Positions 4,702 through 32,313 of a DNA stretch of 64,000 nt are shown here, one piece after another. Each line of letters opens with the position of its first letter. Position 1 is the first letter of the stretch. The notes under the pieces are model-generated. The model saw only the letters and a program-made list of their open reading frames with translations, did no database searches and was not told where the DNA came from. The DNA is from a virus. The stretch covers positions 15,509 through 79,508 of the IMG/VR virus record IMGVR_UViG_3300008108_000044; one strand, given 5' to 3'. Position numbers and translations under genes: made by a program.

Positions 4702-4730
4702 TTGCTATATAAAGTAACTAGGGGTATAAT
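4702..4730 (+). promoter_or_regulatory. Sigma70-type promoter
   Basis: TTGCTA-N17-TATAAT; predicted start about 4737, just before aptamer 1. Confidence 0.75.
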
Positions 4731-4740
4731 AATCCCCTAA

Positions 4741-4994
4741 CGTTCATCCTATGACTAAGGCACTTTTGCTCTTGGCATGGGTTCCACTTCTTTCTATTTC
4801 TACGCCTCAACTTGCTAAATCTAATCAGGTGACAATAAGTTGCGACGCAGCGTGGGAACTAATGGACATCGTTAAAAACGACGATGTAGTAGACCAAAGA
4901 AGAGAAGACCGATTGCTATCAGAACTCCGAAAGGATGTTGTGAAACTTAAGTGCTAAACAATTAAATAGGACGGAAGTAAGCCGACTCGGAACG
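4741..4994 (+). ncRNA. Glutamine riboswitch-like aptamer 1 (glnA/Downstream-peptide family) with an ORF inserted in the P2 loop
   Basis: P1 CGUUC(4741-45)/GAACG(4990-94); P2 UCCUAU(4747-52)/AUAGGA(4966-71); core CGGAAGUAAGCCGACUCGGAACG. Confidence 0.7.
4751..4957 (+). CDS. Small two-Cys protein with probable signal peptide, nested in aptamer 1
   Basis: Hydrophobic N-terminus; SCDAA...LKC; ATG lies in the P2 5' strand. Confidence 0.7.
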   Translation: MTKALLLLAWVPLLSISTPQLAKSNQVTISCDAAWELMDIVKNDDVVDQRREDRLLSELRKDVVKLKC

Positions 4995-4997
4995 GAT

Positions 4998-5166
4998 CGT
5001 TCATCTATGGAGACACTCATTCTTACATGTTTACAAGCACAATTAATTGCTGGGAGAGTTCATCAACAGAACATTCCCAAACAAGCAAAGAATGATTTAA
5101 TTTGGGAGATCAAACAGATCTCTCCAAAAGAGTGTAAAATAGACGCAAAAGCCGACTGAAGGAACG
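4998..5166 (+). ncRNA. Glutamine riboswitch-like aptamer 2 (Downstream-peptide type) with an ORF inserted in the P2 loop
   Basis: P1 CGUUC(4998-5002)/GAACG(5162-66); P2 UCUAU(5004-08)/AUAGA(5139-43); core CGCAAAAGCCGACUGAAGGAACG; lies directly upstream of a YRG peptide gene. Confidence 0.75.
5007..5159 (+). CDS. 50-aa two-Cys protein nested in aptamer 2 (paralog of 4751-4957)
   Basis: METLILTCLQAQLIAGRVHQQNIPKQAKNDLIWEIKQISPKECKIDAKAD*; stop codon lies in the aptamer core. Confidence 0.65.
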   Translation: METLILTCLQAQLIAGRVHQQNIPKQAKNDLIWEIKQISPKECKIDAKAD

Positions 5167-5199
5167 CTCTTTAACCTCAAAAACTAAGGAGAAAACCTA

Positions 5200-5361
5200 A
5201 TGTCACAAGTCACTTATAGAGGGTGTAAGTACAACACCGAAGATGCAAAAAGAGAGTATGTCTCTTGGTATAACCAAACTCATGCTCCTGCTCATCCACA
5301 TAATACATATCGTGGAGTAGCATATCGTCCTTGTAATAATAACAAGGAGGTATCACAATGA
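5200..5361 (+). CDS. DUF4278-family (YRG motif) peptide, 53 aa
   Basis: Two YRG motifs (VTYRGCKY, TYRGVAY); AAGGAG RBS. Confidence 0.8.
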   Translation: MSQVTYRGCKYNTEDAKREYVSWYNQTHAPAHPHNTYRGVAYRPCNNNKEVSQ

Positions 5362-5459
5362 ATACTTACTTCGTTCGCTATCTCAAACTCAAAGCAAAGA
5401 AGGAAAAACTCCTTCACAATGCACAACTGAATATGGCAAAGCAACCACAAGTTGCTTAA
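5358..5459 (+). CDS. Small basic peptide (33 aa)
   Basis: AGGAGG RBS, ATGA overlap; MNTYFVRYLKLKAKKEKLLHNAQLNMAKQPQVA. Confidence 0.65.
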   Translation: MNTYFVRYLKLKAKKEKLLHNAQLNMAKQPQVA

Positions 5460-5462
5460 TGT

Positions 5463-5491
5463 AAAGGAGGGGTTGATCCCCTCCTTTTTTT
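5463..5491 (+). terminator. Intrinsic terminator overlapping the next promoter
   Basis: AAAGGAGGGG-ttgat-CCCCTCCTTT plus T tract; TTGATC-N17-TATAAT at 5473-5501. Confidence 0.85.
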
Positions 5492-5523
5492 ATAGTATAA
5501 TTTAAAAGAGTTCTTCATCTAAA

Positions 5524-6241: not shown

Positions 6242-6958
6242 ATGTCTAATATTGTTAAACTGATTGCTGTTACTCAAGGTGCAGGAGAACTTTCTGGAAA
6301 GTCTGCACAGGAAGTAATTACATACAATGCTCGTGTAAGCAATCCAAGTAATCAACTTAAATTTGATACTGCTGCTGGACTTCTTCGGTATTGTATTAAG
6401 GAAAACCATTGGTCTATCTTTGAGCAAGCAGATATGACACTTGAAATTAATACCACTAGAGGTATCGCAGCCCAAGTGCTTCGTCATAGGTCGTTTACAT
6501 TTCAAGAATTTTCACAACGTTACGCAGATACAAAATTACTTACTGATCTTCCTGAGGTTCCTGAACTTCGCAGGCAAGATGAAAAGAATCGTCAGAACTC
6601 AACCAATGATCTGGATGAGCATGTGCGTGAAAAGTTTGAGGGAATGATTGAGCAGCACTTTGAAGAGGCGCAACGTCTCTATGATAAGATGCTTGATCAT
6701 GGAGTTGCAAAGGAATGTGCAAGGTTTGTGCTCCCACTCGCAACACCAACAAGAATTTACATGAAGGGCTCTGTAAGGTCATGGATCCATTATATTGACC
6801 TTCGTTCTGCTCATGGCACCCAGAAGGAGCACATGAACATTGCAGAAGCAGCACGTTGCGTCTTTATCTGTCAGTTCCCTGATATTGCTAAGGCACTTGG
6901 TTGGGAACCAGAAAATTGTCCAGAGTGTAATGATGCTCCTTCTATTATCATTGAATAA
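6242..6958 (+). CDS. thyX: FAD-dependent thymidylate synthase
   Basis: HWSIFE; RHRSFTFQEFSQRY; ARFVLP. Confidence 0.95.
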   Translation: MSNIVKLIAVTQGAGELSGKSAQEVITYNARVSNPSNQLKFDTAAGLLRYCIKENHWSIFEQADMTLEINTTRGIAAQVLRHRSFTFQEFSQRYADTKLLTDLPEVPELRRQDEKNRQNSTNDLDEHVREKFEGMIEQHFEEAQRLYDKMLDHGVAKECARFVLPLATPTRIYMKGSVRSWIHYIDLRSAHGTQKEHMNIAEAARCVFICQFPDIAKALGWEPENCPECNDAPSIIIE

Positions 6959-31461: not shown

Positions 31462-31532
31462 GCGAATGTGGTGTAGCGGTAACATCCCATCCTTCCAAGT
31501 TGGTGTCACGGGTTCGATCCCCGTCATTCGCT
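31462..31532 (+). tRNA. trnG: tRNA-Gly(TCC)
   Basis: Acceptor GCGAATG/CATTCGC, loop CTTCCAA, GGTTCGATCC; CCA not encoded. Confidence 0.9.
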
Positions 31533-31595
31533 TGGGGAAGTGATCCTGCGGTTCTGTCCAAGAGCTCTCCTTCCCCTTTTTACAAACTGAATATC

Positions 31596-31844
31596 ATGAA
31601 GACAAAACCTTTTTATTCCGACCTAATTGAAATGCCTGTAAAGACAACACCAGAAAATGTCAAGGAAGCAAACCTAGGTCTTTTTAATTGTACGATGACA
31701 CTTCCTGCTGCCGCAGTTCACTGTGGTATGACACAGAAGGAAATGAAAATGACCTTCCGTGAATATTTGAAGTATCATCCACCCACTTATGGGAGCGTGG
31801 TGGAATCGGTAGACACACCAGACTTAAAATCTGTCGGGAATTAA
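31596..31844 (+). CDS. Hypothetical protein whose 3' end overlaps tRNA-Leu
   Basis: KTTPENVKEAN..MTLPAAAVHCGMTQKEMKMTFREY. Confidence 0.65.
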   Translation: MKTKPFYSDLIEMPVKTTPENVKEANLGLFNCTMTLPAAAVHCGMTQKEMKMTFREYLKYHPPTYGSVVESVDTPDLKSVGN

Positions 31845-31875
31845 TCCTGTGGGGGTTCAAGTCCCCCCGCTCCTA
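31791..31875 (+). tRNA. trnL: tRNA-Leu(TAA)
   Basis: Acceptor GGGAGCG/CGCTCCT, loop CTTAAAA, long variable arm, GGTTCAAGTCC. Confidence 0.92.
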
Positions 31876-31952
31876 CTGGGAGGAGTAATAAAGGGATAGA
31901 GTATAACTCTCCGCCTCCCTCCAACTAAATATAAAAAAAGATGGTATGATGC

Positions 31953-32240
31953 ATGAAGCTTAAAATTACTAAAGCTTATTGCTGGCACTCACCAGAAAAA
32001 TCAATAAGAAACGTAGTAATGATGTACTTCATAAATTCTATACCATTTACATGGGATGATTTAACGGAAGAGGAAGAACAAAATCCAGAAGTAGTAATTC
32101 AAGCAAATAATAATGTTGTATATACTGCTGAAGATTTATTCAGAGCTTCTGCTTATTTGATAATGGAAGAAGCACATCCGTGTTTTTTTGAAATGGAATT
32201 AGAAAATCCTGAAGTATTGGCAGAATTAGATGATTTTTAA
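31953..32240 (+). CDS. Hypothetical protein
   Basis: MYFINSIPFTWD..YLIMEEAHP. Confidence 0.7.
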   Translation: MKLKITKAYCWHSPEKSIRNVVMMYFINSIPFTWDDLTEEEEQNPEVVIQANNNVVYTAEDLFRASAYLIMEEAHPCFFEMELENPEVLAELDDF

Positions 32241-32241
32241 T

Positions 32242-32313
32242 GCCCTTGTAGCTCAGTGGTAGAGCAACGGTTTTGTAAACCGTTGGTCGCTGGTTCAAAT
32301 CCAGTCGGGGGCT
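32242..32313 (+). tRNA. trnT: tRNA-Thr(TGT)
   Basis: GCCCTTG/CGGGGGC; anticodon arm ACGGT-TTTGTAA-ACCGT; GGTTCAAATCC. Confidence 0.93.

What the first reader, a model, noticed from the sequence alone, without database searches (positions are those of the whole stretch)
4741..5166. Tandem glutamine-riboswitch-like aptamers, each with a whole protein-coding gene inside its P2 loop
Seen: two repeats of CGUUCAUC(C)UAUG...[ORF]...AUAG(G)ACG-x-AAGCCGACU-x-GGAACG. In each, P1 (CGUUC/GAACG) and P2 (UCCUAU/AUAGGA; UCUAU/AUAGA) close over a loop of about 210 or 130 nt that is itself a reading frame (4751-4957, 68 aa; 5007-5159, 50 aa). Both start codons begin inside the 5' strand of P2, and the second ORF's last codons and stop (GACGCAAAAGCCGACUGA) form the aptamer core. 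Established: these core sequences match the glnA and Downstream-peptide glutamine riboswitch families of cyanobacteria and cyanophages, which usually have a short P2 hairpin and lie upstream of DUF4278 genes, as here. Inference: this is a gene-in-aptamer switch. Glutamine-stabilised folding would bury the nested AUGs, and ribosomes on the nested ORFs would disrupt the aptamers, so nested and downstream genes could be reciprocally controlled by host nitrogen status. Standard covariance-model scans would probably miss these aptamers because of the long loops.
Basis: partly seen in the sequence, partly recalled or inferred. Interest (0 to 1): 0.9.

Follow-up and report, generated by a model that had tools for sequence, protein, structure and literature searches.

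The report
Genes nested inside cyanophage glutamine riboswitch
In this freshwater T4-like cyanophage, a glutamine-sensing RNA switch closes each of its two hairpins around a real small-protein gene, so sensing the host's nitrogen state and translating those genes should compete on one RNA; I found this layout in no paper, and standard RNA scans miss it.

Summary
At 4741-5166 the halves of two glnA-type (Rfam RF01739) glutamine aptamer cores flank two reading frames, 4751-4957 and 5007-5159.

- **Same locus in sister phages:** they carry the same cores with short P2 hairpins, which Rfam recognises. All four combinations of short and ORF-bearing P2 occur.
- **Frequency:** of 100 unique tandem units from an unbiased junction scan of viral contigs, 75 carry at least one nested ORF.
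- **P2 still pairs:** the P2 helices that enclose ORFs show compensatory changes.
- **The ORFs code for protein:** pN/pS is 0.21 for ORF2 and 0.34 for ORF1. Indels are in frame, and both families have two invariant cysteines. The two families are homologous.

The two cores are not independent repeats. Core 1 alone carries the AGUA strand of loop E and core 2 alone the GAA strand. A covarying helix (4980-4987 with 5150-5157) joins them.

Glutamine binding and reciprocal control of nested and downstream genes remain inference. They rest on geometry: the start codons lie in P2, and ORF2's stop lies in the sensor core.

Rfam finds nothing in the window. No paper I could search describes this layout. 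This scan has already noted the same layout on other cyanophage DNA.

The parts
4702..4730 (+). Sigma-70-type promoter, TTGCTA-17-TATAAT. The -10 box sits in the loop of a small hairpin (AGGGG 4720-4724 with CCCCT 4734-4738).
   Evidence: Consensus scan, 10 of 12 matches. One RNA-library contig has Illumina adapter sequence abutting 4737, and RNA contig cover begins in the 4705-4745 bin. This is a weak hint of a start near 4737.
4741..4745 (+). First CGUUC strand of P1. It pairs with GAACG 4990-4994 in the side-by-side model, or with 5162-5166 in the nested model.
   Evidence: Read. Invariant in all units, so covariation cannot pick the partner.
4747..4752 (+). P2a 5' strand UCCUAU. Its last two bases are the A and U of ORF1's AUG.
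   Evidence: P2 pairs 3 and 4 change on both sides among 34 unique ORF-bearing core-1 flanks.
4751..4957 (+). Nested ORF1, 68 aa. It has a signal-peptide-like N-terminus and two invariant cysteines (C31, C68).
   Evidence: Codon-aligned pN/pS is 0.34 with in-frame indels. Family alignment A1. AlphaFold helices 31-42 and 49-65, pLDDT 67.
4966..4971 (+). P2a 3' strand AUAGGA.
4972..4979 (+). Core 1 junction strand CGGAAGUA. AGUA 4976-4979 is the 5' strand of loop E.
   Evidence: Matches the Rfam RF01739 consensus, as shown on relatives. AGUA is present in core 1 of 141 of 141 units and in core 2 of none.
4980..4987 (+). Segment X (AGCCGACU). It pairs with segment Y of core 2 to form the shared P3-like helix.
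   Evidence: There are 25 unique X/Y combinations with compensatory changes. Four of 8 pairs change on both sides in 25 ORF-less units.
4990..5002 (+). GAACG, GAU linker, CGUUC. These are the P1 3' strand of core 1, a 3-nt linker, and the P1 5' strand of core 2. In the nested model they form a local hairpin.
   Evidence: The hairpin forms in the unconstrained minimum-energy fold. The nested topology costs less than side-by-side in the nearest-neighbour model.
5004..5008 (+). P2b 5' strand UCUAU. Its last two bases are the A and U of ORF2's AUG.
   Evidence: Among 74 unique ORF-bearing core-2 flanks, pair 4 is C-G 37, A-U 26, U-A 8, G-U 3, with no non-pairs. Pairing probability is 0.80-0.87 without constraints.
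5007..5159 (+). Nested ORF2, 50 aa, a two-cysteine helical hairpin (C8, C43). Its last codons, I-D-A-K-A-D plus stop, are read from P2b, core 2, Y and loop E.
   Evidence: pN/pS is 0.21 in frame, against 0.84 and 2.9 in the other frames. 269 viral contigs encode relatives, and there are 336 clusters in the protein library. AlphaFold pLDDT is 85, with low confidence in the core-encoded tail (block 41-50 averages 68; residues 48-50 below 50). Homologous to the ORF1 family: hhalign probability 95.4%, E 1.8e-8.
5139..5143 (+). P2b 3' strand AUAGA.
5144..5149 (+). Core 2 junction strand CGCAAA. It lacks AGUA.
5150..5157 (+). Segment Y (AGCCGACU). It pairs with X. Its last U is the first base of ORF2's stop codon.
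5158..5166 (+). GAAG, whose GAA is the 3' strand of loop E, followed by the last GAACG strand of P1.
   Evidence: Matches the Rfam consensus GAAGGAACG. Absent from core 1 in 141 of 141 units. All 141 core 2 end in it, but the finder's regex required that motif, so that count is by construction.
5167..5191 (+). Expression platform. Anti-SD CUCUUUA 5167-5173 pairs with the Shine-Dalgarno region UAAGGAG 5185-5191.
   Evidence: Predicted 7-bp hairpin, -4.4 kcal/mol. In 78 of 134 units the SD pairs with the first 14 nt after P1. This is the same arrangement postulated for gifB in PMC6212724.
5200..5361 (+). Downstream regulated gene, 53 aa, DUF4278 (IF17-like).
   Evidence: Pfam DUF4278 E 2.5e-4, 21.8 bits, below the 25.3 cut-off. 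32 of 38 orthologues downstream of related units match DUF4278.
5358..5459 (+). Small overlapping ORF, 33 aa, joined by ATGA. It is the last gene of the unit.
   Evidence: A similar ORF follows in S-SRM01.
5463..5487 (+). Intrinsic terminator, 10-bp stem followed by a U run. It overlaps the next promoter (5473-5501).

Best explanation
**What it is (shown).** One short transcript runs from a promoter at 4702-4730 to a terminator at 5463-5487. It opens with a type-1 (glnA-type) glutamine riboswitch built from two aptamer-like three-way junctions. The junctions share a central helix (X 4980-4987 with Y 5150-5157) and a single loop E (AGUA from core 1, GAA from core 2). Each junction's P2 hairpin is expanded to hold a real small-protein gene, ORF1 or ORF2. 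Both belong to one family of two-cysteine helical-hairpin proteins.

**How it most likely works (inferred).**
- Each nested AUG starts 3-5 nt into the 5' strand of P2.
- ORF1's stop lies 8 nt before the P2a 3' strand.
- ORF2's stop lies inside Y and loop E, 2 nt before P1.
- A ribosome that initiates on or crosses either ORF must therefore unfold the sensor. A folded sensor must bury both start codons.
- By analogy with the gifB switch, glutamine-stabilised folding should free the Shine-Dalgarno sequence of the downstream DUF4278 (IF17-like) gene from its anti-SD, which lies next to P1.
- If so, high glutamine favours the downstream gene and low glutamine favours the nested genes.
For: - **Identity of the cores.** Sister phages carry the same cores with short P2 at the same locus. 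In S-CREM1 they are annotated as a glnA riboswitch. Rfam RF01739 scores 35.6, 34.2, 33.5 and 28.9 bits on ORF-less cores of relatives. The loop-deleted window cores match ORF-less profiles end to end, at E 4e-13 and 1.3e-8.
- **The fold is kept with the ORF inside.** P2 pairs 3-5 change on both sides in 74 (core 2) and 34 (core 1) unique ORF-bearing flanks. No permutation out of 1000 reaches the observed count of double changes.
- **How widespread it is.** 75 of 100 unique tandem units from an unbiased junction scan carry a nested ORF. These include marine phages P-SSM7 and P-RSM6 and marine virus AG-345-O18, which carries ORFs in both hairpins.
- **The ORFs code for protein.** pN/pS is 0.21 for ORF2 and 0.34 for ORF1, and the off-frames are near or above 1. 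Both families have invariant Cys pairs. AlphaFold pLDDT is 85 for ORF2. hhalign between the two families gives 95.4%.
- **Composite sensor.** The AGUA/GAAGG split holds in 141 of 141 units. The X/Y helix covaries.
- **Placement of the AUG.** It lies at offset 3-5 in P2 in 112 of 114 unique ORF-bearing aptamers.
- **Cost of folding.** Forcing P1 and P2 costs 6.8 kcal/mol here, against 5.2-10 in ORF-less units.
- **Platform and target gene.** Anti-SD/SD hairpin and DUF4278 downstream.
- **Transcription.** The stretch stands in contigs of four RNA libraries.
Against: - No experiment shows that the long-loop RNA binds glutamine, that ORF1 or ORF2 is translated, or that expression changes with nitrogen.
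- Neither nested ORF has a Shine-Dalgarno sequence.
- The P1 strands never vary, so their pairing scheme is untested by covariation.
- In the window's type, the X/Y helix has two A-C mismatches in 8 positions.
- The anti-SD hairpin is absent from about 40% of units.
- Close relatives differ in whether they carry each ORF. This also fits simple cassette shuffling with no regulatory link.
- A ribosome stopping at ORF2's UGA would itself melt the anti-SD. The sign of control on the downstream gene is therefore uncertain.
- RNA contigs do not prove transcription or define transcript ends.
Confidence: 0.6

Rival explanations
1. Passenger genes. The P2 loops are structurally tolerant safe harbours on a strongly transcribed early RNA. 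Small-gene cassettes are swapped in and out by recombination between the conserved aptamer halves. The riboswitch still works, but there is no regulatory coupling with the nested genes.
For: All four presence/absence combinations occur among close relatives. For example, L007 has 98% ORF2 identity but a short P2a. The same ORF subfamily occurs in either hairpin. The unit is bracketed by promoter and terminator hairpins. Variable-length peripheral stems are common in riboswitches (general knowledge).
Against: The AUG sits 3-5 nt into the P2 strand in 112 of 114 unique cases. ORF2's stop sits inside the core in 102 of 109 cases. A neutral loop insertion would not need that register. With this geometry, ribosome and fold cannot coexist whatever the origin of the ORFs.
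Confidence: 0.25
2. Two independent side-by-side aptamers, as the first reader drew them and as tandem glutamine riboswitches are treated in the literature. Each would be complete in itself and act pseudo-cooperatively.
For: Each repeat has CGUUC, P2, an ACG-type junction and GAACG. Rfam aligns single cores of relatives at 29-36 bits. Sherlock et al. list 157 glutamine doublets as pseudo-cooperative systems (PMC9481103).
Against: No core has both loop-E strands: core 1 lacks GAAGG and core 2 lacks AGUA in 141 of 141 units. The marine core 1 (AGUCGC) cannot form its own P3. X and Y covary between cores. In S-SRM01 a change in core 1 is compensated in core 2 at the cost of ORF2's stop codon. Only 3 nt separate the cores, and there is no platform between them.
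Confidence: 0.08
3. Dead switch. Gene insertions split a former riboswitch, and the flanking halves are decaying relics.
For: Rfam finds nothing in the window. One relative (L025) has lost the last P1 strand and the downstream gene.
Against: The non-coding 5' halves are invariant across more than 100 diverged contigs. P2 shows compensatory changes around the ORFs. ORF-bearing forms are the majority.
Confidence: 0.04
4. The loops are not genes. They would be long structured extensions of P2 that happen to be open reading frames.
For: The start and end of ORF2 pair with each other and extend P2 in predicted folds. Neither ORF has a Shine-Dalgarno sequence.
Against: pN/pS is 0.21 and 0.34 in frame, against 0.7-2.9 out of frame. 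Indels are in frame. Both families have two invariant cysteines across families with 14-30% identity. The fold prediction is confident. Profile-profile comparison shows the two families are homologous.
Confidence: 0.03

Closest known systems
Glutamine-I riboswitch (glnA RNA motif, Rfam RF01739), for example the Synechocystis gifB/IF17 leader (PMC6212724; Weinberg 2010, PMC2864571)
   Same: Same conserved P1 (CGUUC/GAACG), bulged A, P2, ACGGAAGUA junction, loop E, GAAGGAACG, and anti-SD next to P1. Same DUF4278 target gene. Cyanobacterial and cyanophage setting.
   Different: Here P2 encloses whole protein genes of 68 and 50 codons. The loop-E strands and P3 are split between two cores. The Rfam model gives no hit on the window.
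Tandem (doublet) glutamine riboswitches, catalogued as pseudo-cooperative systems (Sherlock et al. 2022, PMC9481103; Weinberg 2010)
   Same: Two glutamine aptamer-like cores in series upstream of one gene. ORF-less versions such as those in S-CREM1 and S-PM2 are probably among those doublets.
   Different: The cores are not independent. They are 3 nt apart, each lacks one loop-E strand, and a covarying helix joins them. Three quarters of the phage units sampled carry nested ORFs, which the catalogue does not mention.
Group I and group II introns with ORFs in peripheral loops (general knowledge)
   Same: A conserved RNA tertiary fold tolerates a protein-coding ORF inside one of its hairpin loops. 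Translation and folding of the RNA can interfere with each other.
   Different: Those are self-splicing ribozymes with homing or maturase genes. Here the RNA is a metabolite sensor on an mRNA, nothing is spliced out, and the start and stop codons are part of the sensor helices.
Leader-peptide attenuators and uORF-coupled riboswitch platforms (general knowledge)
   Same: Ribosome position on a short upstream ORF decides which RNA structure forms and so whether a downstream gene is expressed.
   Different: The upstream ORFs here encode conserved, folded proteins. They lie inside the ligand-binding domain itself, not in the expression platform.

Membership tests
Glutamine-I riboswitch (RF01739) | P1 helix CGUUC/GAACG closing the aptamer, with a bulged A before P2 | tested here: met
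   Both strands are present twice (4741-4745, 4990-4994, 4998-5002, 5162-5166), with A at 4746 and 5003. They never vary, so only sequence supports the pairing.
Glutamine-I riboswitch (RF01739) | P2 hairpin supported by covariation | tested here: met
   P2 pairs change on both sides in ORF-less units and in ORF-bearing units. The loop is about 210 nt in core 1 and 130 nt in core 2, instead of about 4 nt.
Glutamine-I riboswitch (RF01739) | Junction ACGGAAGUA, GAAGG (loop E) and a short P3, all within one aptamer | tested here: not met
   No single core has both strands (141 of 141 units). The feature is met only across the two cores, through the X/Y helix.
Glutamine-I riboswitch (RF01739) | Score at or above the Rfam gathering threshold (35 bits) | tested here: not met
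   No hit in the window at the gathering threshold or at E up to 10. ORF-less cores of relatives score 35.6, 34.2, 33.5 and 28.9 bits.
Glutamine-I riboswitch (RF01739) | Selective binding of L-glutamine | not testable with these tools
   Needs in-line probing or ITC on the RNA from 4737 to about 5200.
Glutamine-I riboswitch (RF01739) | Position in the 5' leader of a DUF4278 (IF17-like) gene | tested here: met
   The gene at 5200-5361 matches DUF4278 at E 2.5e-4, below the cut-off. 32 of 38 orthologues match.
Glutamine-II riboswitch (Downstream-peptide, RF01704) | Match to the family model and its pseudoknot architecture | tested here: not met
   No RF01704 hit in the window or in four relatives at permissive thresholds. 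The architecture here is P1/P2 three-way junctions.
Pseudo-cooperative tandem riboswitch | Two complete aptamers, each able to act alone | tested here: not met
   The loop-E strands are split and the two cores share a helix. The linker is 3 nt with no platform in it.
PHROG 504 (phage protein family of unknown function), for ORF2 | Profile match | tested here: inconclusive
   E 0.0012, 19.5 bits, covering 43 of 53 profile positions.

The most novel reading that the evidence does not exclude
A single phage mRNA acts as a nitrogen-dependent toggle. At low glutamine, ribosomes load on the start codons that lie in the P2 strands, translate the two nested two-cysteine proteins and keep the sensor unfolded. 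At high glutamine, the composite two-core sensor folds around both genes, buries their start codons and releases the Shine-Dalgarno sequence of an IF17-like glutamine-synthetase inhibitor. This would be a riboswitch whose ligand-binding domain is itself coding sequence, and which controls genes inside and downstream of it in opposite directions.
Probability: 0.35. Interest if true: 0.9.

Novelty: new variant of a known kind. Interest (0 to 1): 0.82.

Why it matters
Riboswitch aptamers are treated as compact non-coding domains. Family models and genome annotation assume this, so most cyanophage glutamine switches of this type are invisible to Rfam-based scans (75 of 100 sampled units carry a nested ORF).

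If the fold and translation compete as the geometry requires, three things follow:
- It would be a natural case of a sensor that regulates genes inside itself and a downstream gene reciprocally.
- It would be a new design principle for RNA devices.
- It would be a handle on how cyanophages read host nitrogen status during infection, through an IF17-like glutamine synthetase inhibitor.

The shared inter-core helix also changes how tandem glutamine riboswitches should be modelled and tested.

Cultured phage-host pairs carry the nested-ORF layout in at least one hairpin (S-SRM01, DSL-LC02, DSL-LC03, P-SSM7, P-RSM6). The question can therefore be tested directly.

Tried and rejected
- **Rfam scans of the window.** Neither the gathering threshold nor E up to 10 gave a glutamine hit. 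This was expected, because the inserts exceed what the model allows. Infernal is not in the script box, so I replaced the loop-deletion cmsearch test with nhmmer profiles of ORF-less phage aptamers and with Rfam hits on natural ORF-less relatives.
- **Junction pattern in prokaryote genomes.** It says nothing about cellular cases.
- **P1 variation to separate the two topologies.** I looked for it to tell side-by-side from nested P1 pairing. There is none, so the topology stays open. Nearest-neighbour energies favour the nested form, but they ignore tertiary contacts.
- **Covariation in the predicted P2 extension inside ORF2.** The pairs are mostly conserved, with few compensatory changes. Inconclusive.
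- **Foldseek of the ORF2 model against the PDB.** Only generic helical hairpins, E above 2. This gives no functional lead.
- **BLASTP of ORF1 against ORF2.** It found nothing. Homology appeared only at the profile level.
- **RNA-library contigs.** Depth is one figure per contig and pools related phages, so I do not use it to rank expression. The joints that skip the ORFs carry different letters between the sides. They are short-P2 alleles of relatives, not splicing.
- **Papers not held.** Ames and Breaker 2011 and Ren et al. 2015 are not in the library. What I say about the crystal structure comes second-hand from PMC6212724 and PMC12510878.
Full report
**1. What is in the sequence**

The window belongs to an IMG/VR virus record of 79.5 kb. 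Its nearest named relatives are freshwater and marine T4-like cyanophages of the Kyanoviridae.

- Core 1: CGUUC 4741-4745, A 4746, UCCUAU 4747-4752, an ORF at 4751-4957, AUAGGA 4966-4971, CGGAAGUA 4972-4979, AGCCGACU 4980-4987, CG, GAACG 4990-4994.
- Linker: GAU.
- Core 2: CGUUC 4998-5002, A 5003, UCUAU 5004-5008, an ORF at 5007-5159, AUAGA 5139-5143, CGCAAA 5144-5149, AGCCGACU 5150-5157, GAAG, GAACG 5162-5166.

A sigma-70-type promoter (4702-4730) and an intrinsic terminator (5463-5487) bracket the unit. After the second core come three features:
- an anti-SD/SD hairpin (5167-5173 with 5185-5191);
- a 53-codon gene (5200-5361) with a sub-threshold DUF4278 match, whose orthologues match DUF4278 in 32 of 38 cases;
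- a 33-codon overlapping ORF.

**2. Are these really glutamine aptamer cores?**

Rfam finds no glutamine riboswitch in the window, even at E up to 10. Sister phages settle the question.
- S-CREM1 has two short-hairpin cores at the same locus, upstream of the same gene. Its record annotates them as a glnA riboswitch. S-PM2 has the same arrangement.
- S-SRM01, DSL-LC02 and DSL-LC03 have a short first core and a second core holding an ORF2 homologue.
- Rfam RF01739 scores the ORF-less cores of these relatives at 35.6, 34.2, 33.5 and 28.9 bits. The gathering score is 35.
- The window's first-core halves are letter-identical to the flanks of DSL-LC02's 35.6-bit core outside P2.

As a stand-in for the proposed loop-deletion cmsearch, I built sequence profiles from 86 and 24 ORF-less phage cores. 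The loop-deleted window cores match them end to end, at E 4e-13 and 1.3e-8. The intact window matches only through its 3' halves.

**3. How common is it, and is the fold kept?**

A protein-guided search found 269 viral contigs with ORF2 relatives. An independent scan for the 17-nt junction between the two cores gave further loci.
- Together they yield 141 unique units.
- In the junction-derived, unbiased subset of 100, the counts are: 48 short/ORF, 20 ORF/ORF (like the window), 7 ORF/short, and 25 short/short.
- Marine phages P-SSM7 and P-RSM6 and the marine virus AG-345-O18 show the same layout.

In the ORF-bearing hairpins the P2 pairs next to the junction are maintained through compensatory changes.
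- In 74 unique core-2 flanks, pair 3 is C-G 42, U-A 26, G-U 5, with 1 non-pair.
- Pair 4 is C-G 37, A-U 26, U-A 8, G-U 3, with none unpaired.
- Overall pairing is 81%, against 66% in permutations (0 of 1000 reach it) and 31-57% when the register is slid.
- Core 1 (34 flanks) alternates UCCUAU/AUAGGA, UCUUAU/AUAAGA, UCUCAU/AUGAGA and UCCAAU/AUUGGA.

The sequences are related, so these counts overstate the number of independent events. Even so, coding cannot explain a leader strand that covaries with a strand 130-220 nt away.

Forcing P1 and P2 in both cores costs 6.8 kcal/mol in the window. ORF-less units cost 5.2-10. P2b forms without constraint, with probability 0.80-0.87.

**4. Are the nested ORFs genes?**

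- ORF2 (window type, 46 unique sequences, loop part only) has pN/pS 0.21 in frame, against 0.84 and 2.9 in the other frames.
- ORF1, codon-aligned (21 sequences), has pN/pS 0.34, with indels only in multiples of three.
- Marine subfamilies give 0.32-0.44 with saturated synonymous sites.
- Each family keeps two invariant cysteines across members with only 14-30% identity.
- A profile-profile comparison aligns the two families over the Cys-to-Cys region: probability 95.4%, E 1.8e-8. They form one superfamily. Some subfamilies occur in either hairpin.
- AlphaFold predicts a helical hairpin for ORF2: pLDDT 85, helices 8-20 and 25-37. Confidence falls in the core-encoded tail (residues 41-50 average 68; 48-50 are below 50), which fits a tail that the RNA dictates.
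- ORF1 is similar but less confident (pLDDT 67).
- The family has 336 clusters in a library of 1.84 billion proteins, all of them small.
- Function is unknown. There is no Pfam match, only a weak PHROG 504 match, and no structural neighbour.

**5. A correction: one composite sensor, not two independent aptamers**

- In all 141 units, core 1 has the AGUA strand of loop E but never GAAGG.
- Core 2 never has AGUA. All 141 core 2 end in GAAGG or AAAGG, but my unit finder required that motif in core 2, so that half is partly by construction.
- The segment after AGUA in core 1 (X) is complementary to the segment before GAAGG in core 2 (Y).
- Across 25 unique X/Y combinations the complementarity is kept by paired changes. 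Examples are AGUCG/CGACU, AGUCA/UGACU, AGCCGACG/CGCCGACU, AGACAACU/AGUUGACU and GGACGG/CCGCCC.
- On 25 ORF-less units, the pair-counting tool finds 4 of the 8 X/Y pairs changing on both sides. One example is A-U 15, G-C 6, G-U 3.
- In S-SRM01, a change at the first X position is compensated in Y, and this destroys ORF2's stop codon.

Two topologies fit the data.
- Side-by-side: each core has its own P1, and X/Y forms as a pseudoknot.
- Nested: the first CGUUC pairs with the last GAACG. P2a, ACGGAAGUA, X/Y as P3, and GAAGG then reproduce the Rfam consensus exactly. The middle GAACG-GAU-CGUUC folds as a local hairpin that heads an inner junction carrying P2b.

The P1 strands never vary, so covariation cannot decide between them. 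The energy model prefers the nested form. I hold it at about 60:40.

The literature I could read treats glutamine doublets as pseudo-cooperative tandems (PMC9481103).

**6. Mechanism**

Shown:
- The AUG starts 3-5 nt into the P2 5' strand in 112 of 114 unique ORF-bearing aptamers.
- ORF2's stop lies in Y and loop E in 102 of 109 cases.
- The anti-SD abuts P1.

Inferred from these positions and the usual ribosome footprint of roughly 30 nt:
- A ribosome initiating on either ORF occupies P1 and P2 strands.
- One terminating ORF1 covers the P2a 3' strand.
- One terminating ORF2 covers Y, loop E and P1, and reaches the anti-SD.
- Folding of the sensor and translation of its inner genes therefore exclude each other on a given RNA.

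By analogy with gifB, where glutamine is proposed to free the ribosome-binding site (PMC6212724), glutamine should favour the DUF4278 gene and disfavour the nested genes. The sign for the downstream gene is uncertain, because ORF2 termination could also open the anti-SD.

Contigs from four RNA libraries, each from a different study, cover the stretch. One contig carries adapter sequence abutting 4737, 7 nt after the -10 box. This is a weak hint of transcription from the predicted start. ORF1 would then have a leader of about 13 nt.

**7. Comparison and novelty**

The element works like, and descends from, the type-1 glutamine riboswitch. It fails two membership tests as a single Rfam-type aptamer: the model score, and both loop-E strands within one core.

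None of the following mentions ORFs inside the aptamer or a helix between the cores:
- full-text searches for glutamine riboswitches in phages, or for ORFs or insertions inside aptamers;
- the discovery paper (PMC2864571);
- the gifB study (PMC6212724);
- the tandem-riboswitch survey (PMC9481103);
- the S-CREM1 genome paper (PMC9964418).

Notes from this scan's earlier agents report the same layout on other cyanophage DNA. I treated those as leads only, and re-derived the layout, the coding signal and the inter-core helix here.

**Verdict.** This is a real, widespread and apparently undescribed variant of a known riboswitch class. Its anatomy is well supported. Its regulatory logic is inferred.

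Noticed in passing
window 4720-4738 and 5463-5501: The -10 box of the unit's promoter sits in the loop of a small hairpin (AGGGG/CCCCT). Relatives keep a hairpin there with different stem sequences. The unit's terminator hairpin overlaps the next promoter (TTGATC-17-TATAAT). From memory, this resembles the promoter-early stem-loops said to flank mobile gene modules in T4-type phages. It fits the cassette-like gain and loss seen here.
   Followed up: partly
L002 (S-SRM01) 1190-1420: Core 1 has C where other units have A at the first X position. Core 2 has the compensating G where other units have U. That change turns ORF2's UGA into GGA and extends the protein by five residues. This is a direct conflict between RNA pairing and coding, resolved in favour of the RNA.
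   Followed up: yes
protein P0134: In one library protein, an ORF1-type C-terminus runs in frame through core 1, the linker and the start of core 2 into an ORF2-type protein. In some phages the two nested genes may therefore be fused across the sensor core. It could also be a gene-calling or assembly artefact.
   Followed up: no
L025 1420-1720: This is a decayed unit. ORF2 and both P2b strands are intact, but the last P1 strand reads AAAGAAAC and no DUF4278 gene follows. A promoter and terminator follow instead.
   Followed up: partly
L047 and L049, linker between the cores: The 3-nt GAU linker is replaced by 20 nt containing its own small hairpin (ACCUA/UAGGU). Both topologies tolerate this. 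In the nested model it simply enlarges the loop of the inner P1 hairpin.
   Followed up: partly
window 5009-5030 with 5089-5136: The pyrimidine-rich first codons of ORF2 are predicted to pair with its purine-rich last codons and so extend P2. The hydrophobic N-terminus and charged C-terminus of these proteins may be shaped partly by this RNA constraint. Covariation was inconclusive.
   Followed up: partly
window 5358-5459: A 33-codon ORF overlaps the end of the DUF4278 gene through ATGA. S-SRM01 has a similar ORF. In S-CREM1 a similar sequence forms the C-terminal part of the downstream protein itself.
   Followed up: no
window 31462-32313 and 6242-6958: Three tRNA genes (Rfam, 56-72 bits) and an ORF with no family search run here; it lies where S-SRM01 and S-PM2 have thymidylate synthase. 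Both are ordinary cyanomyovirus content.
   Followed up: no
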